Below are positions 51 to 45,070 of a stretch of 45,236 nucleotides of DNA, piece after piece; position 1 is the first letter of the stretch; every line of letters begins with the position of its first letter. The stretch is from Escherichia phage CR01. The position numbers and the translations under genes are program-made. The stretch is taken from sequence record OR061068; one strand, given 5' to 3'. Below the pieces are notes generated by a model. The model did no database searches and was not told the DNA's origin. It was given only the letters and a program-made list of their open reading frames with translations.

Positions 51-61
51 TTCCAAATTCC

Positions 62-115
62 TTATCTCTCGTTTTGATGTAATGAATAGTACCCTATTAT
101 ATTGGGGTGCGCAAA
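62..115 (-). promoter_or_regulatory. conserved early promoter/operator cassette, copy driving the wrap-around gene
   Basis: Reverse complement TTTGCGCACCCCAATATAATAGGGTACTATTCATTACATCAAAACGAGAGATAAGGAATTT immediately precedes the ATG; contains TATAAT, palindrome AATAG-N4-CTATT and an AAGGA ribosome-binding site; near-identical copies at 9808-9870, 43428-43495 and 32905-32970. Confidence 0.5.
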
Positions 116-1713: not shown

Positions 1714-2762
1714 ATGGCAATTACTACTATCGGCGATATCGTAACTGGCAACATCCCGGTCCTGGCGTCTTACATGACCGAGGACCCGGTAGAAAAACCG
1801 CGTTCTTCCAGTCTGGTATTCTGACCCCGACTCCATACGCTGCCGAGATTGCCCGCGGCTCGTCCAACATCGCTAACATCCCTTTCTGGAAAGCGATTGA
1901 TACTTCTATTGAGCCTAACTACTCGAACGACGTATACCAGGACATCGCAACCCCGCGTAACGTGCAGACCGGCGAGATGATGGCGCGCGTTGCATACCTG
2001 AACGAAGGCTTCGGCCAGGCAGACCTGACTGTAGAACTGACCAGTCAGAATCCGCTGCAATCCGTAGCGTCCCGTCTGGATAACTTCTGGCAGCGCCAGG
2101 CGCAACGCCGTCTGATTGCTACCGCGCTCGGTCTGTACAACGACAACGTAGCCGCTACCGATGAATACCATACGCAGAACGATATGGTTATCGACGTGTC
2201 TGCTTCTCTGGGCTTCGACGCTGGCGCATTCATCGACGCTACCCAGACTATGGGCGATGCGCTGATGGGCAACGGCGGTGAAGTGCTGGGCGCTATCGCG
2301 ATGCACAGCTTCGTTTATGCGCAGGCGCGTAAGCAGCAGCTTATCGACTTCATCAAAGATGCTGACAACGACACCCTGTTCGCCACCTACCAGGGCTACC
2401 GCGTGATTGTTGACGACAGCATGACCGTAGTTGGCTCCGGCTCGAGCCGTAAGTTCATCTCCATCATCTTCGGCAACGGCGCTATCGGTTACGGTGAAGG
2501 TAATCCGTCCAACCCGCTGGAATACGAGCGCGAAGCATCTCGCGGTAACGGCGGCGGCGTTGAAACCCTGTGGACCCGTAAGACCTGGTTGCTGCACCCA
2601 CTGGGCTACAGCTTCACCAGTGCGGTAATCACCGGCAACGGCACCGAGACTGTAGCCCGCTCTGCTTCCTGGCAGGACCTGGCGAACGCCTCCAACTGGA
2701 ACCGTGTTGTTGAACGTAAGCACGTACCTATTGCCTTCCTGGTAACTGGTGTCGGTGCTTAA
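1714..2762 (+). CDS. major capsid protein, interrupted by an apparent frameshift near the N-terminus
   Basis: ATG at 1714 reads MAITTIGDIVTGNIPVLASYMTEDPVEK then hits a stop at 1822; the -1 frame is open from ~1794 to 2762 (track ORF 1962..2762); A5 run at 1793-1797; followed by a terminator. Confidence 0.6.
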
Positions 2763-7225: not shown

Positions 7226-7252
7226 TAAGGCCCCGAAAGGGCCTTTTTCTTA
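7226..7252. terminator. bidirectional rho-independent terminator
   Basis: AAGGCCCCGAAAGGGCCTTTTTC: GC hairpin flanked by A-run upstream and T-run downstream; lies between convergent genes 6050..7222 (+) and 7250..7804 (-). Confidence 0.65.
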
Positions 7253-7804
7253 CAAACCTAATTTTAAAGCAATGTCTATAACGTTCGATTTAACATCACC
7301 TGGTATGATGTAGGTATCGTAATCTTTTACACCATCAACGCCATACAGATAACCACGGCTGTCCCCCTCAAATGTATAGCCTTCTCGGTGCAAGCGAACG
7401 ATTCTTACATCATGACCCGCGGCGACGATAGGGGCTACTTCACTGGCGAATCCACCGTCGGACACTACAAAAACTTCGTTGCCGTCTGGCAAGTTTTCAG
7501 CAAGATACTTACCGAAATAATCATCACCGAATACCGGTTTAATGAATTGCTCAGAAACGGCAATCATGAACTGACGACGGGACAACCCATTAAGAAAACC
7601 CTCTGGCTTTTCTTTCCGTGCCCGGTCGTCGTAGCCGTCGAGAAATTCGCGGTAAGCATCCGGGCCTAACGCTGCCAAAGCAATATCGAACATTGGATTC
7701 TTGAAACTGGTAGTTCCTTTCGCAAAGCCCATTTCTACCAGCGCCATAGCAAGTGTGTCTTTCCCGCAACCCGCCGGACCATTAAGAATAATTACCTTAG
7801 CCAT
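7250..7804 (-). CDS. P-loop kinase, dNMP kinase-like (T4 gp1-like) or polynucleotide kinase-like
   Basis: 184 aa; Walker A GPAGCGKDT at residues 8-16; downstream RRQFMIAV and VFVVSDGG...VRIVRLHREG segments resemble the T4 gp1 family as recalled; start overlaps the upstream stop (TAATG). Confidence 0.5.
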   Translation of the reverse strand: MAKVIILNGPAGCGKDTLAMALVEMGFAKGTTSFKNPMFDIALAALGPDAYREFLDGYDDRARKEKPEGFLNGLSRRQFMIAVSEQFIKPVFGDDYFGKYLAENLPDGNEVFVVSDGGFASEVAPIVAAGHDVRIVRLHREGYTFEGDSRGYLYGVDGVKDYDTYIIPGDVKSNVIDIALKLGL

Positions 7805-8289
7805 TATTTATCACTCCCGTGTGATTTTAAGTGTGTAGAGTTACCGTTACAGTCGTATCCAGTGACAGCGTGTGTGGTTATGCCGAGGCCTCGGAAATGC
7901 TTAATTACCGCCGGAGAATCATCGAATGCACACAAGATTCTCTCCAGCCCGATAGCACGCAACACCTCTTCTTTAATTGCGATGTCTTTTCTGTTGTCGT
8001 GTTTGCTGCGCATGATTAGCTGATAAAATTCGACGCGGTGGCGCTGCAACCACATTCTGGTTTCTTTTTCTGCATCATCACTACGGCCCGTTAAAATAAT
8101 AACGGCGTAGCGACGATTGAGGGCGTTACACAGTTCGATGTTATCTCTAATTGGTTCATCATCTTTGCACGCCATGTTAAAGGGCTTCCACGCCCACGTT
8201 TCGTTGTAGTTATCTTTCGGCAGCAGGTGCAAACGATGCGTACCATCAGCCAATGTCCCATCTAAATCGAAAATTACAATATCTTTCAT
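7804..8289 (-). CDS. HAD-superfamily phosphatase, T4 Pnk 3'-phosphatase-like
   Basis: 161 aa; motif I FDLDGTLA (DxDGT), motif II ILTGRSDD, RKD lysine motif, motif IV AFDDSP; order and spacing match the phosphatase domain of T4 polynucleotide kinase as recalled. Confidence 0.55.
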   Translation of the reverse strand: MKDIVIFDLDGTLADGTHRLHLLPKDNYNETWAWKPFNMACKDDEPIRDNIELCNALNRRYAVIILTGRSDDAEKETRMWLQRHRVEFYQLIMRSKHDNRKDIAIKEEVLRAIGLERILCAFDDSPAVIKHFRGLGITTHAVTGYDCNGNSTHLKSHGSDK

Positions 8290-9035
8290 CCCAGCATCTC
8301 CGGTGAAATAGTTAAACGTGCGACCTCGCCGTATTCGGCGCTATAAGTAATTACATTTGCACTACGGCCTGACATCCATCCGCCGCGGGAGGCGTAGGCA
8401 TCTTTAGCCGCCAGGGTGCGGTGTTGCTCAACAATCATGTTACGGCTTTCTACAATCTTTTGATGGTGGAGATGCCCGACATGTGCGTAACTGTACTCGC
8501 TTTCGCCAAATGCTTTTCTGAACTTAGCTATCATAATTGGCTCGACCACCTCAAACCGGCATTTATGCCCGTGTGTAAAGAACAGCGTCGTTTTGCCGTG
8601 TTGCACCATCTTGTAAACATCCGGCGACGTATCGACGAACACACGAGGCTCGTTGTCGTATAGCGTACTGAACATCTCAGCCAACCAAATCATACCTGAT
8701 TCGTCATGGTTCCCTTGCACGATAAGCAGGCGAACATTTTTATGTTTAACCAGAGCCATATCGACAACACGGCGGACCATACGAATCATGTAGCGGACCA
8801 GTTTCTGATAGCGCGTATCCGCGTCAAGAACATGACCACTCGCTGGCGTAACGGCATCCAGACTATCAAAGTGCGCGAAGTCACCAAGAAGGTTAATAAC
8901 CCCTGTTCCCGCATCTGGCGCTTTCTGAAACGCAGCATCAAACCACCGAGAGAACAGGTCTTCTGCAATCTTCATATCCCAGTCATCGCCGCTCTCGTCG
9001 GCCCATGCCAGCATACCGAGATGGAAATCAGACAC
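8286..9035 (-). CDS. calcineurin-like metallophosphoesterase (Mre11/SbcD-like), probably the C-terminal part of a fusion with the upstream HTH ORF
   Basis: Motifs SDFHLG (DxH), GDFAHFD, GNHDE, THGH, GHLHH in canonical order; annotated start is GTG with no beta-strand before the DxH motif, while the upstream frame is open. Confidence 0.6.
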   Translation of the reverse strand: MSDFHLGMLAWADESGDDWDMKIAEDLFSRWFDAAFQKAPDAGTGVINLLGDFAHFDSLDAVTPASGHVLDADTRYQKLVRYMIRMVRRVVDMALVKHKNVRLLIVQGNHDESGMIWLAEMFSTLYDNEPRVFVDTSPDVYKMVQHGKTTLFFTHGHKCRFEVVEPIMIAKFRKAFGESEYSYAHVGHLHHQKIVESRNMIVEQHRTLAAKDAYASRGGWMSGRSANVITYSAEYGEVARLTISPEMLG

Positions 9036-9412
9036 AGTGTAAAGGTTGAGTAGCTTGTCGTCTCGTTTGGTGCGAACGGCTTTAACAGGAGCAACGGGGT
9101 AATCTCCGACTTCATGCCCTCGATTACGGCCTTCATTAACTCGACCTGACGTTCCGCATCGGTGTCGGTCTTAACCCATTGCAGTTTAGTGTTGCCTAAC
9201 TCGTCCACAAGTGACGATGTTCCTTTAATCTTGTAGCCATCTGGCACAAGGTGGCTAACGTCCCGCCCGTGGCCTACGCCTTTCTTAGCCAGCTTCGCTT
9301 TACGGATGCGAATAACGCGGTCTGAGATGCCGTATTTACGGGCGATGTCGATATTCTTCATACCGGCGTTCAATTCTTCCTGTAACTGTTCGTCGGTTAT
9401 TTTCTTCCGGGC
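8972..9412 (-). CDS. HTH DNA-binding protein (N-terminal part of a probable HTH-metallophosphoesterase fusion)
   Basis: ATG 9412 with ribosome-binding site GAGGAAG; HTH-like DEQLQEELNAGMKNIDIARKYGISDRVIRIRKAK; the C-terminal 20 residues look non-native; adding one C at C-run ~9096-9099 joins this frame to the phosphoesterase. Confidence 0.45.
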   Translation of the reverse strand, partial: ARKKITDEQLQEELNAGMKNIDIARKYGISDRVIRIRKAKLAKKGVGHGRDVSHLVPDGYKIKGTSSLVDELGNTKLQWVKTDTDAERQVELMKAVIEGMKSEITPLLLLKPFAPNETTSYSTFTLCLISISVCWHGPTRAAMTGI

Positions 9413-9480
9413 CATGCTTACTTCCTCGTGTTTAGGATTTGTCCTATTTAACCACAGTGCATTCATTTAAATAAAGGCGA

Positions 9481-9807
9481 CTATTTACTTTCCGCGCCTA
9501 TCGCCCACCCGGTCATCACCATTTGCAGGCGGGTGGCTGTCAGTAGGCTGTAAAACGCGTCTCCGTTTTTCTCTACCGAACGTATTACAGAGTATGTTAC
9601 GGCTTGCGGAGGCAGGCCCGATTTACCAACCCCTACGGCAGCCTCACACTCGCGAACGGTAGAGTCCTTAAATGCCTTTACAATAGTAGGGTCGGCTTTA
9701 TCGAGCACACCAGAAGTCATAAGAACAGATTCACTAAATACCTGTTCGCACGGGGACCCAAAAGCAGCAAAAGACATAAACCCCAGAGCTAATACTAATT
9801 TACGCAT
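9481..9807 (-). CDS. small secreted/periplasmic protein (108 aa), first gene of the moron operon
   Basis: N-terminal signal peptide MRKLVLALGFMSFAAFG; gene sits immediately downstream of a conserved early promoter cassette. Confidence 0.5.
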   Translation of the reverse strand: MRKLVLALGFMSFAAFGSPCEQVFSESVLMTSGVLDKADPTIVKAFKDSTVRECEAAVGVGKSGLPPQAVTYSVIRSVEKNGDAFYSLLTATRLQMVMTGWAIGAESK

Positions 9808-9870
9808 AATTATTTCCTCAGTAAGTTACAGGTGAATAGTACCCTATTATATTGGGGTGCGCAAGTAGTG
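9808..9870 (-). promoter_or_regulatory. conserved early promoter/operator cassette driving the moron operon
   Basis: Reverse complement CTTGCGCACCCCAATATAATAGGGTACTATTCACC...GAGGAAATAATT-ATG; near-identical to the copies at 62-115 and 43428-43495. Confidence 0.5.
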
Positions 9871-29757: not shown

Positions 29758-32014
29758 CTACTCCAAATCCTCCTCTGTCACCACCAGCATTTCATTCGGT
29801 TCGTATATTGTCTTCGGCCTTAATCTGTCCCCCATCTTTTCGGGTATCCGGTATGTGCCGGGGACAACTTCACCGTTAACATCACATCCGAGCATCAACT
29901 CCCCGTCTTTCAGCATCTTCTCGAGATGATGGTTGGTGATGGCGTGGTCCCCCGAGTTCGCCACTATCTGCCGTTGGGTAAAACCTCGTCCGGTGTCGTC
30001 GGACTGTTGCAGGTCTTCCAGCGCGGCGAGTATTGATTCCTTACGCCCTTCATCCTTCCCGCGTTTTACAGCATTATTTACGTTTTCTTTACCTTCTTTA
30101 GTTAACCCTTCTTCCCGCTCCTTCTCCTCGTCAGTTTTGAACGGCTCGAAGCCCCACGGCATCAGCACAAGCGCCTTGTGCGGCTCAGGCAGATCGAGGT
30201 TTACGATTGTGCCGTATTCCTCTGTGCTACCGAGGAACTCAACCGCACGGTATTCTTTCGGAGGCGGGGCTTCACGGAACTGTACCGACTCCAGAACCAT
30301 GCCAACCGTTTTCTGTTGAGGCCCATGCTTAAATTTCGAGTGGTATACGTTTATCTGGCGGCCGGTAGCGCGCTCAATTGTCAGCTCCACATCAACACCG
30401 GCATACAGCGCCCCGCTACCACGGGCTTTCTTTCCACCCTTAGGCGTATGGTGGACGACACCCACAGCGGCTTTAGTTGCGTCGCGTACTTTTTAAGGAT
30501 GGCGATAACTTTACCCATGCCAATTGCAGTTGATGAACTGTTCTCGTCGAACTTGTCAATTGTCAGGGCCAGCGTCTGGTTGAGGGTATCGAACGCGACC
30601 ATACCAATAGGCTCGTCCCCTGCAGCTTCACGCATCCTGCGGATTAGCGCGGGGATTTTTTATCACCATGCGCGGCGAGCACCTCACCCATATCAATGAC
30701 ATGTACGTAATCTTTACCTTCCTCGCCGTATTTAGCCGCGAGCGCGTCAATACGTGTGCGTGTAGCTGCGCCTCCCTCACCGTCGATATAGAAATGGTGG
30801 CAACGCTGGGTATCCGCCCCGGCAAACCGGTATCCGGCGGCGCTCAGGTACATCATCCCCAGCGTATAGAACGATTTGTACGTGCCGGATTCCCCAACAA
30901 TATCCCAGATACAATCTGACGGCATGTACCCCTCAACGACGAAATCAGCCTTTACCGGTTCCGGTAGCTCGTCCTCTTCTGAGTCATCATCGTCTTCCAG
31001 GTCGTCGAGGCTGCATGAAACAGATTCACGCGCACCCCATCCGATAGCCCCGGCGACTTCACTGAACGGCAGCCCAGTCGCATCACACGCGTATTTCCAC
31101 ACCTCTTTCGGCGACATGCCTTCGGTTGCCGTGATGTCGGTGTCGTGAATCATCGTTACGTTCGGCGCTTCATATCCCTCGCGCGGGAAGCATAGCAGGA
31201 AGTCGTCCGGACGCGGCGTCGGGTCGCTGTAGTTCTCTGCGTGTTCCGGTGTAGCTGGCATTTTTAGTCCGCGCGGCGTCATGATGCCACCGTACTCGAA
31301 CGCCAGTGCCTCAAACGCATCAGTAAACGCAGTGCGCAGTTCTTCCGGTATCTGGTAGTCAGATGCGCTGCTGATGTCAACGGCTGGGACGCCTTCCAGT
31401 AACTCATCAGGGTCAATCAGGTCGTTGCGGCGCGACCAGATAACAGTAGAGCCAACTGGCGGCAGGTACATCGGCTGCGACAGAGTGAACCCGCTGCGGT
31501 CCGCGCCCATGCCTTTGAAGAAGTGCTCCAGTAATCCATGGCGAACACGGATGATGTCGCCACCTTCAACCGGGCGGGCCAGCGGCATGACGACGCGAAA
31601 GCGCGGCGACTCGTCGGTATGTGATGCCGTGGTGTAGAGACACATCGCCTGGCGGCTGCGCTTAACCAGGCGCACCGCTTCCTGATACTCTTCCGGCGTT
31701 GTGCTGTCGAAGTCCAGGTACGCCAGCGACGATTTGCTTACAGACGCATCACAGCGATAGAAGAAGCCTTTGCGCGCCTGCTTAAAGTCACCGGTTTCCG
31801 GGTCTTTTACGGTGCTGTGCGTAGAGTCGCACGCGGCAGTGATATACCCCGGCGCGGTCTTAGGGCTAATCCCGTCACGAACGGCATCGAGCGGCTGGAT
31901 TAACTCTTTCAGGTCGTCCAGTGTTGCCGTGTGGGTAGTTCTGACGTTTATATCCTTTTTCTCTGCCCGCGCGTTGCGACGTGACCACGAGTAGGATAAA
32001 ATTACATCGGACAT
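29758..32014 (-). CDS. DNA primase-helicase (primase-like N-domain plus RecA/DnaB-like C-domain), split by two homopolymer frameshifts
   Basis: N-domain LAYLDFDS (DxD-type); P-loop-like GESGTYKS; C-region VVHHTPKGGKKARGSGALYAG resembles the DnaB H4 motif; frame changes at T6 run 30656-30661 and T5 run 30490-30494 repaired by adding one base. Confidence 0.6.
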
Positions 32015-32302
32015 GTTGTATATTCCTTAAGCAAGTAATTTGGCCTCGGCGTTCACCGCGTCGGGGCTTTCTTTTATTCCAGGTCTTCTAAAGTAGCGGT
32101 CATTCCGCGAACTTCGGCAACAGCACTATATTTCCCGCCAACATTTTTCACGACACCAGATTTAACCAGTACCTTCAACGACCCTTCAATAATGGCGGAA
32201 CTATAGTACCTAAAATAACTACGGCGCAAGTCCATAACGCTGCACGACCCTTTTTACAGGTTAATGAAACGACTGCCGTAAATACGCGGGACTGGAACTC
32301 GG

Positions 32303-32506
32303 TCATTTTACATTCTCCTTAATCCACGCTTCCACTTTCTCCAGGTCGAAAGTACCCGGCTGCCGGCGGCCCATAATACGGATACAACAATCCGGGAACT
32401 TCCCACTCTTTAACCAGTTATTCAGCGTGCGACGGGTAACCCCAATACGCTCGGCTACTTCATTCTGTGTCATTCTCAAACCCCCATTATCAGTTAACGA
32501 AACCAA
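32303..32506 (-). CDS. AlpA/excisionase-type HTH DNA-binding protein
   Basis: 67 aa; MTQNEVAERIGVTRRTLNNWLKSGKFP; preceded by a TTGATT-N17-TATACT promoter-like sequence. Confidence 0.55.
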   Translation of the reverse strand: MVSLTDNGGLRMTQNEVAERIGVTRRTLNNWLKSGKFPDCCIRIMGRRQPGTFDLEKVEAWIKENVK

Positions 32507-32509
32507 GTA

Positions 32510-32970
32510 TACATTGCGAATAATGGGAAATCAAACATAATCGCACCTATTGACATTAAGAAAATCTTCGTTTAAGGTGCTTCTATATCTTAGTTACTTT
32601 GATTCCTGTTCACCTTGTAAAACCCGCCGAAAACGAGCGCCCAACGCGAAGTGTTAGGCGGCAGTTTACTGAACATTCGAATTATCGTAACTTTCCTTCC
32701 TAAGTATCTCCGGTTGCCCTGGGCAAGCTCTATTCCCATCGGCGGAATATATCTTAAGTATCTGATTTTCTTAAAGTGCCGTAGATTCGCAACCGTAAAA
32801 ATGTAACGATTATTGGGCAGGCTTAGGGCCTGCCCTTTAGTTACCAAGTAATAAGAATAAAGGCACAACCCTACCTGAAGAATCACAACGGCAACGTAAC
32901 TATTCTCTTGCACACCCCAACATAATAGGTTACTATTCACTTATCGAAACGAGACATAAGGAATTTAGCA
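32510..32970. promoter_or_regulatory. 460-bp non-coding control region with divergent promoters and a terminator-like hairpin (candidate origin / ncRNA locus)
   Basis: No convincing ORF; TTGACA at 32552 with -10-like element; hairpin GGGCAGGC-TTAG-GGCCTGCCC plus T-tract at ~32816-32842; conserved cassette at 32905-32970. Confidence 0.45.
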
Positions 32971-33189
32971 ATGAACAAAGCGACTGCAAGCGTAGTTTCC
33001 GCAATCAAAGAAGTTTACGGCATCGATATTTCAGAGCGCGTAATTATCGGGAACAAACGCAGCTTCTTTACGTTCGACACCGACGGAATGGATGAAAATG
33101 ATTTTAACAACGTACAACGTTTCGCCAACGGTAAAGGGCTTCGTAACGAGCCTGCTGGTTACAAGAAATTCGCTATCTACTTTAAATAA
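32971..33189 (+). CDS. 72-aa early protein, paralog of the wrap-around gene
   Basis: MNKATASVVSAIKEVYGIDISERVIIGNKRSFFTFDTDGMDENDFNNVQRFANGKGLRNEPAGYKKFAIYFK; same length and ~80% identical to the wrap-around product; same promoter-leader cassette. Confidence 0.6.
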   Translation: MNKATASVVSAIKEVYGIDISERVIIGNKRSFFTFDTDGMDENDFNNVQRFANGKGLRNEPAGYKKFAIYFK

Positions 33190-37839: not shown

Positions 37840-37913
37840 ACCAATTGACACCCGAGACTAATCCGACGATACTTAAATCACCTCCTGTTCCATCCCTCTA
37901 CTATCCAGTTTTA

Positions 37914-37944: not shown

Positions 37945-38173
37945 TCTATTTTCTGCAATGACTAGTTGACTATTACCTACGACCCTATTATATTTACTCC
38001 ATCGACAACGAGAACGGAGTAGAGAAGATGAAAATCACAGATATCGAAGCCTTCAAAGACGCACAACTGATGGCACGCATCGCCGTTGGTAACCTGAGCA
38101 ACAGCATTCCAGCGGACGCGTTCTGGTTCGCCGCGATGCAGACACTGAAAGCAGCTTATGCAGGAGAGAAGAA

Positions 38174-43116: not shown

Positions 43117-43140
43117 AAAGGCCCCTTAAGGGGCCTTATC
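43117..43140. terminator. bidirectional rho-independent terminator
   Basis: AAAGGCCCCTTAAGGGGCCTT followed by T-rich tract; between convergent portal (+) and 43146..43427 (-). Confidence 0.6.
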
Positions 43141-43427: not shown

Positions 43428-43495
43428 TTCTAAATTCCTTATCTCTCGTTTTGATGTAATGAATAGTACCCTATTATATTGGTGTCTGCAAATAT
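43428..43495 (-). promoter_or_regulatory. conserved early promoter/operator cassette
   Basis: Reverse complement TTTGCAGACACCAATATAATAGGGTACTATTCATTACATCAAAACGAGAGATAAGGAATTTAGAA-ATG. Confidence 0.5.
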
Positions 43496-45040: not shown

Positions 45041-45070
45041 AAAAGGCCCCATTACGGGGCCTTAGTTTTA
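45041..45070. terminator. bidirectional rho-independent terminator
   Basis: AAAAGGCCCCATTACGGGGCCTTAGTTTTATTT between convergent genes. Confidence 0.6.

What the first reader, a model, noticed from the sequence alone, without database searches (positions are those of the whole stretch)
32510..32970. 460-bp non-coding control region between replication and early blocks: candidate origin or small RNA
The largest intergenic region has divergent sigma70-like promoters (TTGATT-N17-TATACT toward the AlpA-like gene; TTGACA at 32552 on the + strand), repeated CGTAAC-like elements and a strong GC hairpin with T-tract (32816-32842) that would terminate a ~250-nt + strand transcript with no ORF. The only ORF in the track here (32590..32940, minus) is low-complexity and implausible. 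The arrangement fits a replication origin, a regulatory RNA locus, or both.
Basis: seen in the sequence. Interest (0 to 1): 0.45.

Follow-up and report, generated by a model that had tools for sequence, protein, structure and literature searches.

The report
Conserved noncoding early RNA locus
The largest gap between genes in this E. coli phage genome is a real, strongly conserved control region whose rightward promoter most likely makes a folded RNA of about 250 bases that codes for no protein; no such RNA is in Rfam or in the papers I could search for this much-used phage group, and its job is still unknown.

Summary
The window is a complete Kagunavirus genome (Guernseyvirinae). The gap is 497 bp (32474-32970), the largest in the genome. 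It holds back-to-back sigma70-type promoters, six GTWAC motifs and a GC hairpin with a short T tract. No ORF of 20 aa or more is kept across relatives, apart from one 20-aa frame over the invariant promoter block.

About 440 Kagunavirus and Jerseyvirus genomes carry the region. Against Jerseyvirus, 32700-32900 is 84-94% identical, while the adjacent primase-helicase gene is 41-79%.

From the plus-strand promoter (TTGACA 32550-32555, N17, TAAGGT) a transcript of about 250 nt would run to the hairpin at 32815-32835. It folds into a 100-nt hairpin (SL1), a CU-rich linker and a second hairpin (SL2). SL1 is supported by compensatory changes: 18 of 41 pairs, against 1-7 in slid controls.

Rfam has no match. 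Relatives carry non-homologous 5' domains and 3' hairpin modules in the same layout, and these track the neighbouring HTH gene type.

I read it as an early transcription hub producing a structured non-coding RNA or leader. An origin has no specific support: no DnaA boxes, no iteron array, and the GC-skew minimum coincides with a gene-strand switch. It is not excluded. No transcript data exist.

The parts
32303..32473 (-). HTH_17 (AlpA/excisionase-like) regulator gene, 56 aa. It is the first gene of the leftward replication operon and forms one inherited module with the control region.
   Evidence: Pfam HTH_17, E = 2.4e-7. Annotated as 171 nt in relatives. 87-90% nucleotide identity to Jerseyvirus. 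Its sequence type changes together with the 5' domain type of the intergenic region.
32506..32534 (-). Leftward sigma70-type promoter TTGATT-N17-TATACT, driving the HTH-replication operon.
   Evidence: Consensus scan. Both hexamers lie in blocks that are invariant across 14 relatives.
32550..32578 (+). Rightward sigma70-type promoter: TTGACA (32550-32555), N17, TAAGGT (32573-32578). Predicted start near 32585.
   Evidence: Read from the sequence. CCTATTGACATT is invariant and the -10 is TAAGGT or TAAGTT in all type-1 relatives. The other region types have a TTGAC(A/T) or TTGAAA -35 with a TAAGCT, TAAAAT or TATAAT -10 at the equivalent place.
32585..32845 (+). Predicted non-coding transcript of about 250-260 nt.
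   Evidence: MFE -76.1 kcal/mol, z = -2.88 against shuffles. No ORF kept across the two genera. One ATG, followed at once by TAA; ATG depleted at 2.0 observed against 4.4 expected. The distance from the promoter motif to the end of the first GC hairpin is 279-297 nt in the type-1 relatives that have a matching hairpin, whichever 3' module they carry. No transcript data exist.
32592..32692 (+). SL1, a 100-nt irregular hairpin. P1 32592-97/32687-92; P2 32600-05/32679-84; P3 32607-12/32670-75; P4 32617-21/32665-69; P5 32624-28/32657-61; variable tip.
   Evidence: Single-sequence folds of 32 relatives give the same architecture. 19 apical variants in about 7 sequence families keep P4 and P5. A covariance model built from Jerseyvirus alone finds the Kagunavirus copies at full length. 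94.3% of cells are paired, against 29-47% in slid controls, and 18 of 41 pairs show changes on both sides, against 1-7.
32693..32712 (+). CU-rich, predicted single-stranded linker (CTTTCCTTCCTAAGTATCTCC). It includes direct repeat 1, TCCTAAGTATCT, at 32698-32709.
   Evidence: GTAACTT-CCTTCCT-AGTATC is nearly invariant. TAAGTATCT occurs only twice on the plus strand of the whole genome, both times here.
32714..32745 (+). SL2, a short two-part hairpin (UGCC/GGCG and UGGG/CCCA) with loop GCUCUA.
   Evidence: Recurs in most single-sequence folds. 12 pairs, 94.3% of cells paired, with several G-U to A-U or G-C changes (helix 4).
32752..32763 (+). Direct repeat 2, TCTTAAGTATCT, 54 nt after repeat 1. 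It lies at the point where alternative 3' modules are joined in relatives.
   Evidence: A TAAGTATCT-like motif followed by CTGAT and TGCCGT recurs in the otherwise unrelated region types.
32803..32844 (+). 3' module: GTAAC (32803-07) / GTTAC (32840-44) outer stem around the GC hairpin 32815-22/32828-35, then TTTAGTT. Terminator-like.
   Evidence: Terminator scans. The top pair of the stem covaries: C-G in 7 sequences, U-A in 3. My own d-score is +14.4, a modest terminator.
32845..32907 (+). Conserved stretch upstream of the early promoter, A-rich at first, then GAAGAATCACAACGGCAACGTAACTATTCTC.
   Evidence: 92-95% identical to Jerseyvirus. Present in every Kagunavirus region type read. Not shared with the other three cassette copies.
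32908..32970 (+). Promoter and 5'UTR cassette for the 72-aa gene: TTGCAC (32908-13), N17, TACTAT (32931-36), AAGGAA ribosome-binding site, ATG at 32971.
   Evidence: Three more copies lie on the minus strand. The same consensus was reported as a PHIRE 'phage promoter' in phage fBC-Eco01 (PMC9825357).

Best explanation
The region is the early transcription hub of the phage.

Two back-to-back host-type (sigma70) promoters fire in opposite directions. The leftward one expresses the small HTH regulator and the replication operon. The rightward one (TTGACA-N17-TAAGGT) transcribes about 250 nt that encode no protein and fold into a long hairpin (SL1), a CU-rich single-stranded linker, a second hairpin (SL2) and a 3' GC hairpin with a short U tract. 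A separate early promoter cassette then starts the first rightward gene.

I infer that the conserved functional unit is this plus-strand RNA. It would act either as a released small RNA ended at the hairpin, or as a structured leader or attenuator of rightward transcription, for example a processing or read-through control element.

Shown by sequence comparison: the conservation, the absence of coding capacity, the promoter conservation and the covarying structure. Inferred only: that the RNA is made, where it ends, and what it does.
For: - Spread and conservation. The region is in 444 phage records. Against Jerseyvirus, 32700-32900 is 84-94% identical and the HTH gene 83-89%, while the primase-helicase gene is 41-79%.
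- Promoters. Both are invariant in the relatives aligned.
- No coding capacity. No ORF of 20 aa or more is kept across the two genera, apart from a 20-aa frame that overlaps the invariant promoter block. There are frame-breaking 1-nt indels. ATG is depleted and the one conserved ATG is followed by TAA.
- SL1 on a plain MAFFT alignment. 91.7% of cells are paired, against 33-50% when partners are slid; covariation score 0.148 against at most 0.054.
- SL1 on the alignment fitted by a Jerseyvirus-only covariance model. 94.3% paired against 29-47%; 18 of 41 pairs changed on both sides against 1-7; score 0.370 against at most 0.075; 0 of 500 shuffles reach it.
- SL1 tip. 19 apical variants keep P4 and P5. 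The fifth pair of P4 is A-U, G-C or U-A; the third is A-U, G-U or G-C.
- Strand. G-U cells outnumber A-C cells, 106 to 33 and 48 to 9, which fits the plus strand.
- Fixed layout. A GC hairpin ends 279-297 nt from the promoter motif whichever 3' module is present. Four or more unrelated 5' domains in relatives keep the order promoter, 210-290 structured non-coding nt, hairpin, cassette.
Against: - No transcript evidence exists. The one Kagunavirus RNA-seq paper counts annotated genes only.
- The -10 matches the consensus at only 3 of 6 positions, and the U tract is short.
- The alternative 3' hairpins in relatives score negative on my terminator score, so termination may not be the conserved role.
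- High identity between Kagunavirus and Jerseyvirus could partly reflect recent module exchange rather than purifying selection. The locus is visibly mosaic.
- Most compensatory changes separate a few clades, so independent events are few.
- The covariance-model alignment is fitted to the structure.
- Watson-Crick covariation alone cannot tell RNA from a DNA hairpin, and the G-U excess is modest.
- No target was found. Complementarity to the cassette and HTH translation-start regions is no better than to shuffled targets.
Confidence: 0.6

Rival explanations
1. Replication origin. The region would be where the phage primase-helicase starts DNA synthesis, possibly opened or primed by transcription from the plus-strand promoter. 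My recollection of phage T7's primary origin is promoters followed by an AT-rich stretch. This could hold together with the RNA explanation.
For: - It lies next to the replication operon.
- GC content is 40.6%, against 50.9% for the genome.
- The cumulative GC-skew minimum falls at 32-33 kb.
- A promoter is followed, after the hairpin, by a short AT-rich stretch (32836-32863).
- A two-copy 12-nt direct repeat is spaced 54 nt apart, about five helical turns.
Against: - There are no DnaA boxes, even relaxed ones.
- There is no array of three or more iterons.
- TGTTCACC occurs once and becomes TGTTTCACC in Jerseyvirus.
- The skew minimum and maximum sit exactly where the genes switch strand, so the skew is explained by transcription direction.
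- K1G has a primase-helicase N-part 91% identical to the window's but an unrelated 5' domain. The domain type follows the HTH gene instead.
- Compensatory and G-U changes in stems are not expected of protein-binding origin DNA.
Confidence: 0.15
2. Purely DNA-level regulatory region. The conserved blocks would be operators for the HTH proteins and promoter elements. The hairpins would be ordinary terminators or insulators between divergent units, and any RNA made would have no function of its own.
For: - GTWAC motifs are enriched. Three of the six share TAGTTAC and one has AAGTTAC.
- Jerseyvirus has a perfect 15-bp palindrome, GTAACTTCAAGTTAC, close to the predicted start site.
- The region type changes with the HTH gene type, as regulator and operator pairs do.
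- TAAGTATCT occurs only here.
Against: - Operators would not need about 35 stacked base pairs kept by compensatory changes across very different tip sequences.
- Conservation extends through 250 nt far from either promoter.
- G-U pairs are tolerated in the stems.
Confidence: 0.2
3. An unannotated small protein gene. Some annotators call a 48-106 aa minus-strand ORF here.
For: Hypothetical proteins are annotated in the gap in Bas73, NTEC3, AMO_3701M, Kenya-K6 and TU03.
Against: - The calls differ in position and length between genomes.
- None of the four window ORFs of 34 aa or more is kept at 80% coverage or more in any of 22 Jerseyvirus relatives.
- There are 1-nt indels inside conserved blocks.
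- The plus strand has almost no ATG.
Confidence: 0.03

Closest known systems
Lambda pR' - 6S RNA - tR' late leader (from my own knowledge, not tested here)
   Same: A strong host-type promoter makes a short non-coding transcript of about 200 nt that ends at a terminator at the head of a long same-direction gene array. Here that array contains small genes, then lysis, packaging and structural genes. In both cases the leader and its neighbouring regulator gene vary together as a module between related phages.
   Different: No Q-type antiterminator was identified; the neighbour is a 56-aa HTH_17 protein. A separate early promoter lies between the hairpin and the first gene. Candidate promoters also exist further downstream. 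There is no sequence similarity, and read-through control is untested.
HK022 put RNAs, cis-acting antiterminator stem-loops just downstream of early promoters (from my own knowledge)
   Same: Stem-loops kept by covariation lie directly downstream of an early sigma70 promoter and upstream of a terminator-like hairpin. No trans target is evident.
   Different: As I recall, put elements are about 70 nt with two adjacent stem-loops. Here SL1 alone is 100 nt and a 20-nt CU-rich linker separates it from SL2. No sequence or model comparison was possible.
T7 primary origin, promoters followed by an AT-rich stretch and primed by transcription (from my own knowledge)
   Same: A promoter followed by non-coding DNA and a short AT-rich stretch, close to the primase-helicase operon. 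The helicase has a RecA-type domain (AAA_25).
   Different: Here the non-coding DNA carries a covarying RNA structure. There is no phage RNA polymerase gene in the annotated relative. No functional evidence bears on replication.
Leader-derived immunity RNAs of P4 (CI) and P1/P7 (c4) (from my own knowledge)
   Same: A small structured phage RNA next to an AlpA/Vis-like HTH gene and a primase-helicase operon.
   Different: The RNA here is on the strand opposite to that operon. Rfam, which to my knowledge includes a C4 family, gives no match. No internal target repeats complementary to the RNA were found. The helicase shows AAA_25 only and matches none of the Pfam domains I would expect for a P4 alpha-type protein.

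Membership tests
Any Rfam 15 RNA family | Covariance-model score at or above the family's gathering threshold | tested here: not met
   No match in the whole window at gathering thresholds. In E-value mode the best hit is E = 0.4 at 19 bits (sbrA), driven by the terminator hairpin.
Sigma70 promoter (rightward) | -35 close to TTGACA, 16-18 nt spacer, -10 close to TATAAT | tested here: inconclusive
   The -35 matches 6 of 6 and the spacer is 17 nt. The -10, TAAGGT, matches only 3 of 6, though it keeps T1, A2 and T6. It falls below the scan tool's threshold. All elements are conserved in relatives. Activity was not measured.
Intrinsic (Rho-independent) terminator | GC-rich stem, 3-8 nt loop, U-rich tract directly after the stem | tested here: met
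   9 pairs, 7 of them G-C, by the scan tool's count, then TTTAGTT with 5 T in 8. My d-score is +14.4. The alternative hairpins C, D and E in relatives score negative, so efficiency and a shared role are uncertain.
Structured RNA (general) | Base pairs kept through compensatory changes more often than in controls | tested here: met
   18 of 41 pairs changed on both sides against 1-7 in slid controls; 0 of 500 shuffles reach the covariation score; 19 tip variants with the same architecture. Caveats: few independent clades, and alignment A8 was fitted to the structure.
Iteron-type origin (plasmid, lambda or P4 style) | Array of three or more direct repeats for the initiator, next to an AT-rich unwinding element | tested here: not met
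   Only two-copy repeat families were found. TGTTCACC occurs once and is not conserved.
DnaA-dependent origin | DnaA boxes (TTATCCACA or the relaxed TTWTNCACA) | tested here: not met
   No plus-strand match to either pattern in the gap or in the genome. The reverse complement was not scanned.
Transcription-primed origin (T7 or T4 style) | A promoter whose transcript opens or primes an adjacent AT-rich region; initiation mapped there | not testable with these tools
   A promoter and a short AT-rich stretch are present. The GC-skew minimum is confounded by the gene-strand switch.
Lambda-type late leader with Q antitermination | A Q-family antiterminator gene beside the promoter, and a Q binding site within it | not tested
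   Only five neighbouring proteins were scanned. The adjacent gene is HTH_17, not Q.
Protein-coding gene | An open frame kept across relatives | tested here: not met

The most novel reading that the evidence does not exclude
Guernseyvirinae phages (Kagunavirus and Jerseyvirus) carry an undescribed family of early, highly expressed, structured non-coding RNAs of about 250 nt. Their 5' domains and 3' hairpins are swapped as modules together with the neighbouring HTH regulator. The RNA would act on the transcription machinery or on a host factor, for example as a cis antiterminator or attenuator, or as a decoy, rather than by base-pairing with phage messages.
Probability: 0.35. Interest if true: 0.65.

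Novelty: new member of a known kind. Interest (0 to 1): 0.45.

Why it matters
Kagunavirus and Jerseyvirus phages are among the most often isolated E. coli and Salmonella phages proposed for therapy and food safety. About 440 genomes are deposited, yet in most of the records I inspected this 0.5-kb stretch is left unannotated or is given inconsistent 'hypothetical protein' calls.

If the RNA is real, three things follow:
- It would mark the main early control point of these phages.
- It would correct those gene calls.
- It would add a phage RNA family that is absent from Rfam.

Its modular exchange with the regulator gene would also make it a tractable case for studying how phage regulatory modules evolve. 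If only the promoters matter, the result is an ordinary divergent promoter region.

Tried and rejected
- **Rfam.** Gathering and E-value modes gave nothing meaningful.
- **tRNA or tmRNA.** None in the window.
- **Host or prophage origin.** No match in 5,426 E. coli genomes, in near or distant mode.
- **P4-type iteron TGTTCACC at 32607.** A single copy that becomes TGTTTCACC in Jerseyvirus. I treat it as chance.
- **DnaA boxes.** None.
- **Minus-strand terminator-like hairpin at 32660..32638.** It is the tip of SL1 read on the other strand, and the T-rich tail is not kept in Jerseyvirus.
- **Inverted repeat 32553-66 / 32764-77.** Not conserved in Jerseyvirus, and one arm lies upstream of the start site.
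- **Minus-strand promoter-like site 32774..32746.** Its -10 is not conserved.
- **Small ORFs.** Not conserved.
- **Antisense pairing.** Pairing of the RNA with the four cassette translation-start regions or with the HTH leader is no better than with shuffled targets, z from 0 to -1.
- **Loose 'core' DNA pattern (TAAGTATCT...ACTGA...TGCCGT).** It returned mostly chance hits in IMG/VR and missed type 1. A wasted scan.
- **SL1 covariance model on other region types.** It does not detect the alternative 5' domains of K1G-like and other relatives, so those are not shown to be structural homologues.
- **GC skew as origin evidence.** Rejected as confounded.

Full report
**What the window is.** The 45,236-bp window is a complete, circularly permuted genome of a Kagunavirus (subfamily Guernseyvirinae). 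The 901-nt region queried is 99.3% identical to Escherichia phage vB_EcoS_UTEC10. The finding lies where two gene blocks diverge. To the left, on the minus strand, are a 56-aa HTH gene, a 77-aa gene and a primase-helicase. To the right, on the plus strand, are many small genes, then lysis, packaging and structural genes.

**Checking the observation.**
- Relatives annotate the HTH gene as starting at the ATG at 32473. The non-coding gap is therefore 32474-32970, 497 bp.
- In UTEC10 this is the largest gap between annotated genes, 497 nt against 420 for the next.
- The leftward promoter TTGATT-N17-TATACT (32534..32506) is found by the scan tool.
- The rightward TTGACA is at 32550-32555, followed by 17 nt and TAAGGT at 32573-32578. 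Its -10 is too weak for the scan tool's threshold.
- The hairpin GGGCAGGC-TTAGG-GCCTGCCC (32815-32835) followed by TTTAGTT is the top-listed terminator-like site between 32400 and 45236.
- There are six GTWAC motifs, about four times the genome density.

The description is therefore accurate, apart from a 2-nt shift in the TTGACA position and a slightly larger gap.

**Is it more than chance? Conservation says yes.**
- 444 phage records match the gap, all Kagunavirus or Jerseyvirus or close kin. 298 match over at least 80% of it.
- Against Salmonella Jerseyvirus genomes, the primase-helicase gene is 41-79% identical in 100-nt windows. The HTH gene is 83-89% and the gap at 32700-32900 is 84-94%.
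- In a 14-genome alignment both promoters fall in invariant blocks. Further invariant or nearly invariant blocks run through the gap: AGTTACTT, TTCAC(C/T)TTGT (one variable base), ACTGAA, GTAACTT-CCTTCCT-AGTATC and TCTTAAGTATCTGA.
- One caution applies. The locus is mosaic, so part of the high identity may come from exchange between lineages rather than from selection alone.

**Not coding.**
- None of the window's ORFs of 34 aa or more in the gap is kept at 80% coverage or more in any of 22 Jerseyvirus relatives. The 116-aa minus-strand ORF is intact in only 7 of 15 Kagunavirus-type relatives.
- The only frame that is kept is a 20-aa one lying over the invariant promoter block.
- Conserved blocks contain 1-nt indels.
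- The predicted transcript has one ATG, followed at once by TAA. Across 32 relatives ATG is at half its expected frequency.
- The 'hypothetical proteins' annotated here in some genomes differ in place and length.

**Structure.** From a start near 32585 the plus strand folds at -76.1 kcal/mol, z = -2.88 against shuffles. Single-sequence folds of 32 distinct relatives repeat the same elements: a 100-nt hairpin SL1 (32592-32692, helices P1-P5), a CU-rich linker, and a short hairpin SL2 (32714-32745).
- On a plain MAFFT alignment the structure pairs 91.7% of cells, against 33-50% when partners are slid.
- The tip of SL1 exists in 19 variants from about seven sequence families. All keep P4 and P5. 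The fifth pair of P4 is A-U, G-C or U-A, and the third is A-U, G-U or G-C.
- A covariance model built from Jerseyvirus SL1 alone finds every Kagunavirus type-1 copy at full length on the plus strand, with E from 3e-8 to 0.03.
- On that alignment 94.3% of cells pair, against 29-47% in slid controls. 18 of 41 pairs have changes on both sides, against 1-7. The covariation score is 0.370 against at most 0.075, and no shuffle reaches it.
- G-U cells outnumber A-C cells, 106 to 33 and 48 to 9. This favours an RNA read from the plus strand over a DNA hairpin or a minus-strand RNA, though modestly.
- Caveats: the changes mostly separate a few clades, and the second alignment is fitted to the model.

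**The 3' end.** The GC hairpin is flanked by GTAAC and GTTAC, which can extend the stem. Its top pair covaries. By a terminator score written from memory of d'Aubenton-Carafa's formula it is a modest terminator, +14.4.

Relatives replace this module at a fixed junction just after TAAGTATCTGA with other hairpin modules. These end at nearly the same distance from the promoter, 279-297 nt, but they lack a U tract and score negative. A hairpin at this position is therefore conserved, but efficient termination may not be. I cannot decide between a released RNA of about 250 nt and a structured leader that is partly read through.

**The right-hand end is something else.** Positions 32908-32970 are one of four copies of a promoter and 5'UTR cassette: TTGC(A/G)(C/G)-N17-TACTAT, then an AAGGAA ribosome-binding site. 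The other copies lie at 114..55, 9865..9832 and 43491..43430 on the minus strand. The same consensus was reported as a PHIRE-predicted 'phage promoter' in phage fBC-Eco01 (PMC9825357).

**Variants in relatives.** Other Kagunaviruses (K1G and several IMG/VR contigs) have unrelated 5' domains. They keep the same order: leftward promoter, rightward TTGAC(A/T) or TTGAAA promoter, 210-290 structured non-coding nt, GC hairpin, conserved upstream block, cassette. The type of 5' domain follows the type of HTH gene. It does not follow the primase-helicase: K1G's primase-helicase N-part is 91% identical to the window's while its 5' domain is unrelated. Short motifs recur across types: TAAGTATCT-like, CTGAT and TGCCGT.

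**Origin hypothesis.**
- The gap is AT-richer than the genome, 40.6% GC against 50.9%.
- It holds the cumulative GC-skew minimum. However, the skew extremes coincide with the two points where the genes switch strand, so the skew carries no independent information.
- There are no DnaA boxes and no repeat family with more than two copies. The lone TGTTCACC is not conserved.
- The helicase carries only an AAA_25 domain.
- An origin opened by transcription cannot be excluded, and it could coexist with the RNA.

**What is known.**
- Rfam has no match.
- E. coli genomes have none.
- A conserved 20-base pattern from the linker hits only 41-45 kb phage contigs of this family in IMG/VR. It also hits one scaffold in a Taishania pollutisoli assembly that carries the full Jerseyvirus-type element, most likely contamination.
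- Literature searches found no description of this region. The one Kagunavirus RNA-seq study reports annotated genes only and places the HTH gene among four early genes.

**Verdict.**
- The 'regulatory RNA' reading is supported by comparative evidence but has no transcript data behind it.
- The 'origin' reading is unsupported but not excluded.
- I commit, at about 0.6, to a plus-strand structured non-coding RNA or leader at an early divergent-promoter hub.
- It is a new candidate family of a familiar kind, of moderate interest.

Noticed in passing
window 32908-32970 (+), 114..55 (-), 9865..9832 (-), 43491..43430 (-): A promoter and 5'UTR cassette in four copies: TTGC(A/G)(C/G)-N17-TACTAT, with an unusually conserved spacer that contains TATAAT, then a shared leader and an AAGGAA ribosome-binding site. 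The three minus-strand copies head genes set against the surrounding plus-strand late genes. The same consensus was published as a PHIRE 'phage promoter' for fBC-Eco01 (PMC9825357).
   Followed up: partly
window 32971-33189 (+) and a paralogue running from about 50 on the minus strand across the window ends to about 45070: The 72-aa gene after the gap has a paralogue (MNKATANVVRAIKELYG...) that is cut by the window boundary. The window is therefore a circular permutation of the genome, opened inside a gene. Pfam has no match for the 72-aa protein.
   Followed up: partly
window 29758-32014 (-) and 32074-32306 (-): The primase-helicase is split into at least two frames (30644..32014 and 29758..30465, with 30381..30635 between). 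The 77-aa gene is also split (32074..32235 and 32175..32306). Both are intact in UTEC10 and K1ind1. These are frameshifts, either real or from assembly errors.
   Followed up: partly
window 7227-7245, 43118-43137, 45043-45063: Three near-identical two-way terminator hairpins (AAGGCCCC-loop-GGGGCCTT).
   Followed up: no
window 7250-9807 (-): A minus-strand island headed by one cassette copy. By the UTEC10 annotation it encodes a metallophosphoesterase, a polynucleotide kinase and a 'superinfection immunity' protein. This could be an RNA-repair or anti-defence set.
   Followed up: no
L108 (NZ_JACVEL010000022.1, Taishania pollutisoli CZZ-1), 2100-2280 (-): An 18,987-bp scaffold of a bacterial genome assembly carries the complete Jerseyvirus-type version of this non-coding element. 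It is probably phage contamination of the assembly.
   Followed up: partly
L006 3455-4429 and L007 3455-4455 (Salmonella phages VSe103 and S101): About 1 kb is left unannotated after the HTH gene in these genomes. The stretch holds the hairpin modules B and C one after the other.
   Followed up: no
L002 and other Jerseyvirus loci, at the position equivalent to window 32582-32597: Jerseyvirus has a perfect 15-bp palindrome, GTAACTTCAAGTTAC, near the predicted start of the plus-strand transcript. The window lacks it. It could be an operator, or an alternative hairpin that competes with P1 of SL1.
   Followed up: no
window 37845-37873 and 37966-37994 (+): Two of the best sigma70-like matches in the rightward array (TTGACA-17-GATACT and TTGACT-17-TATATT), after the lysis genes. 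They are possible middle or late promoters.
   Followed up: no
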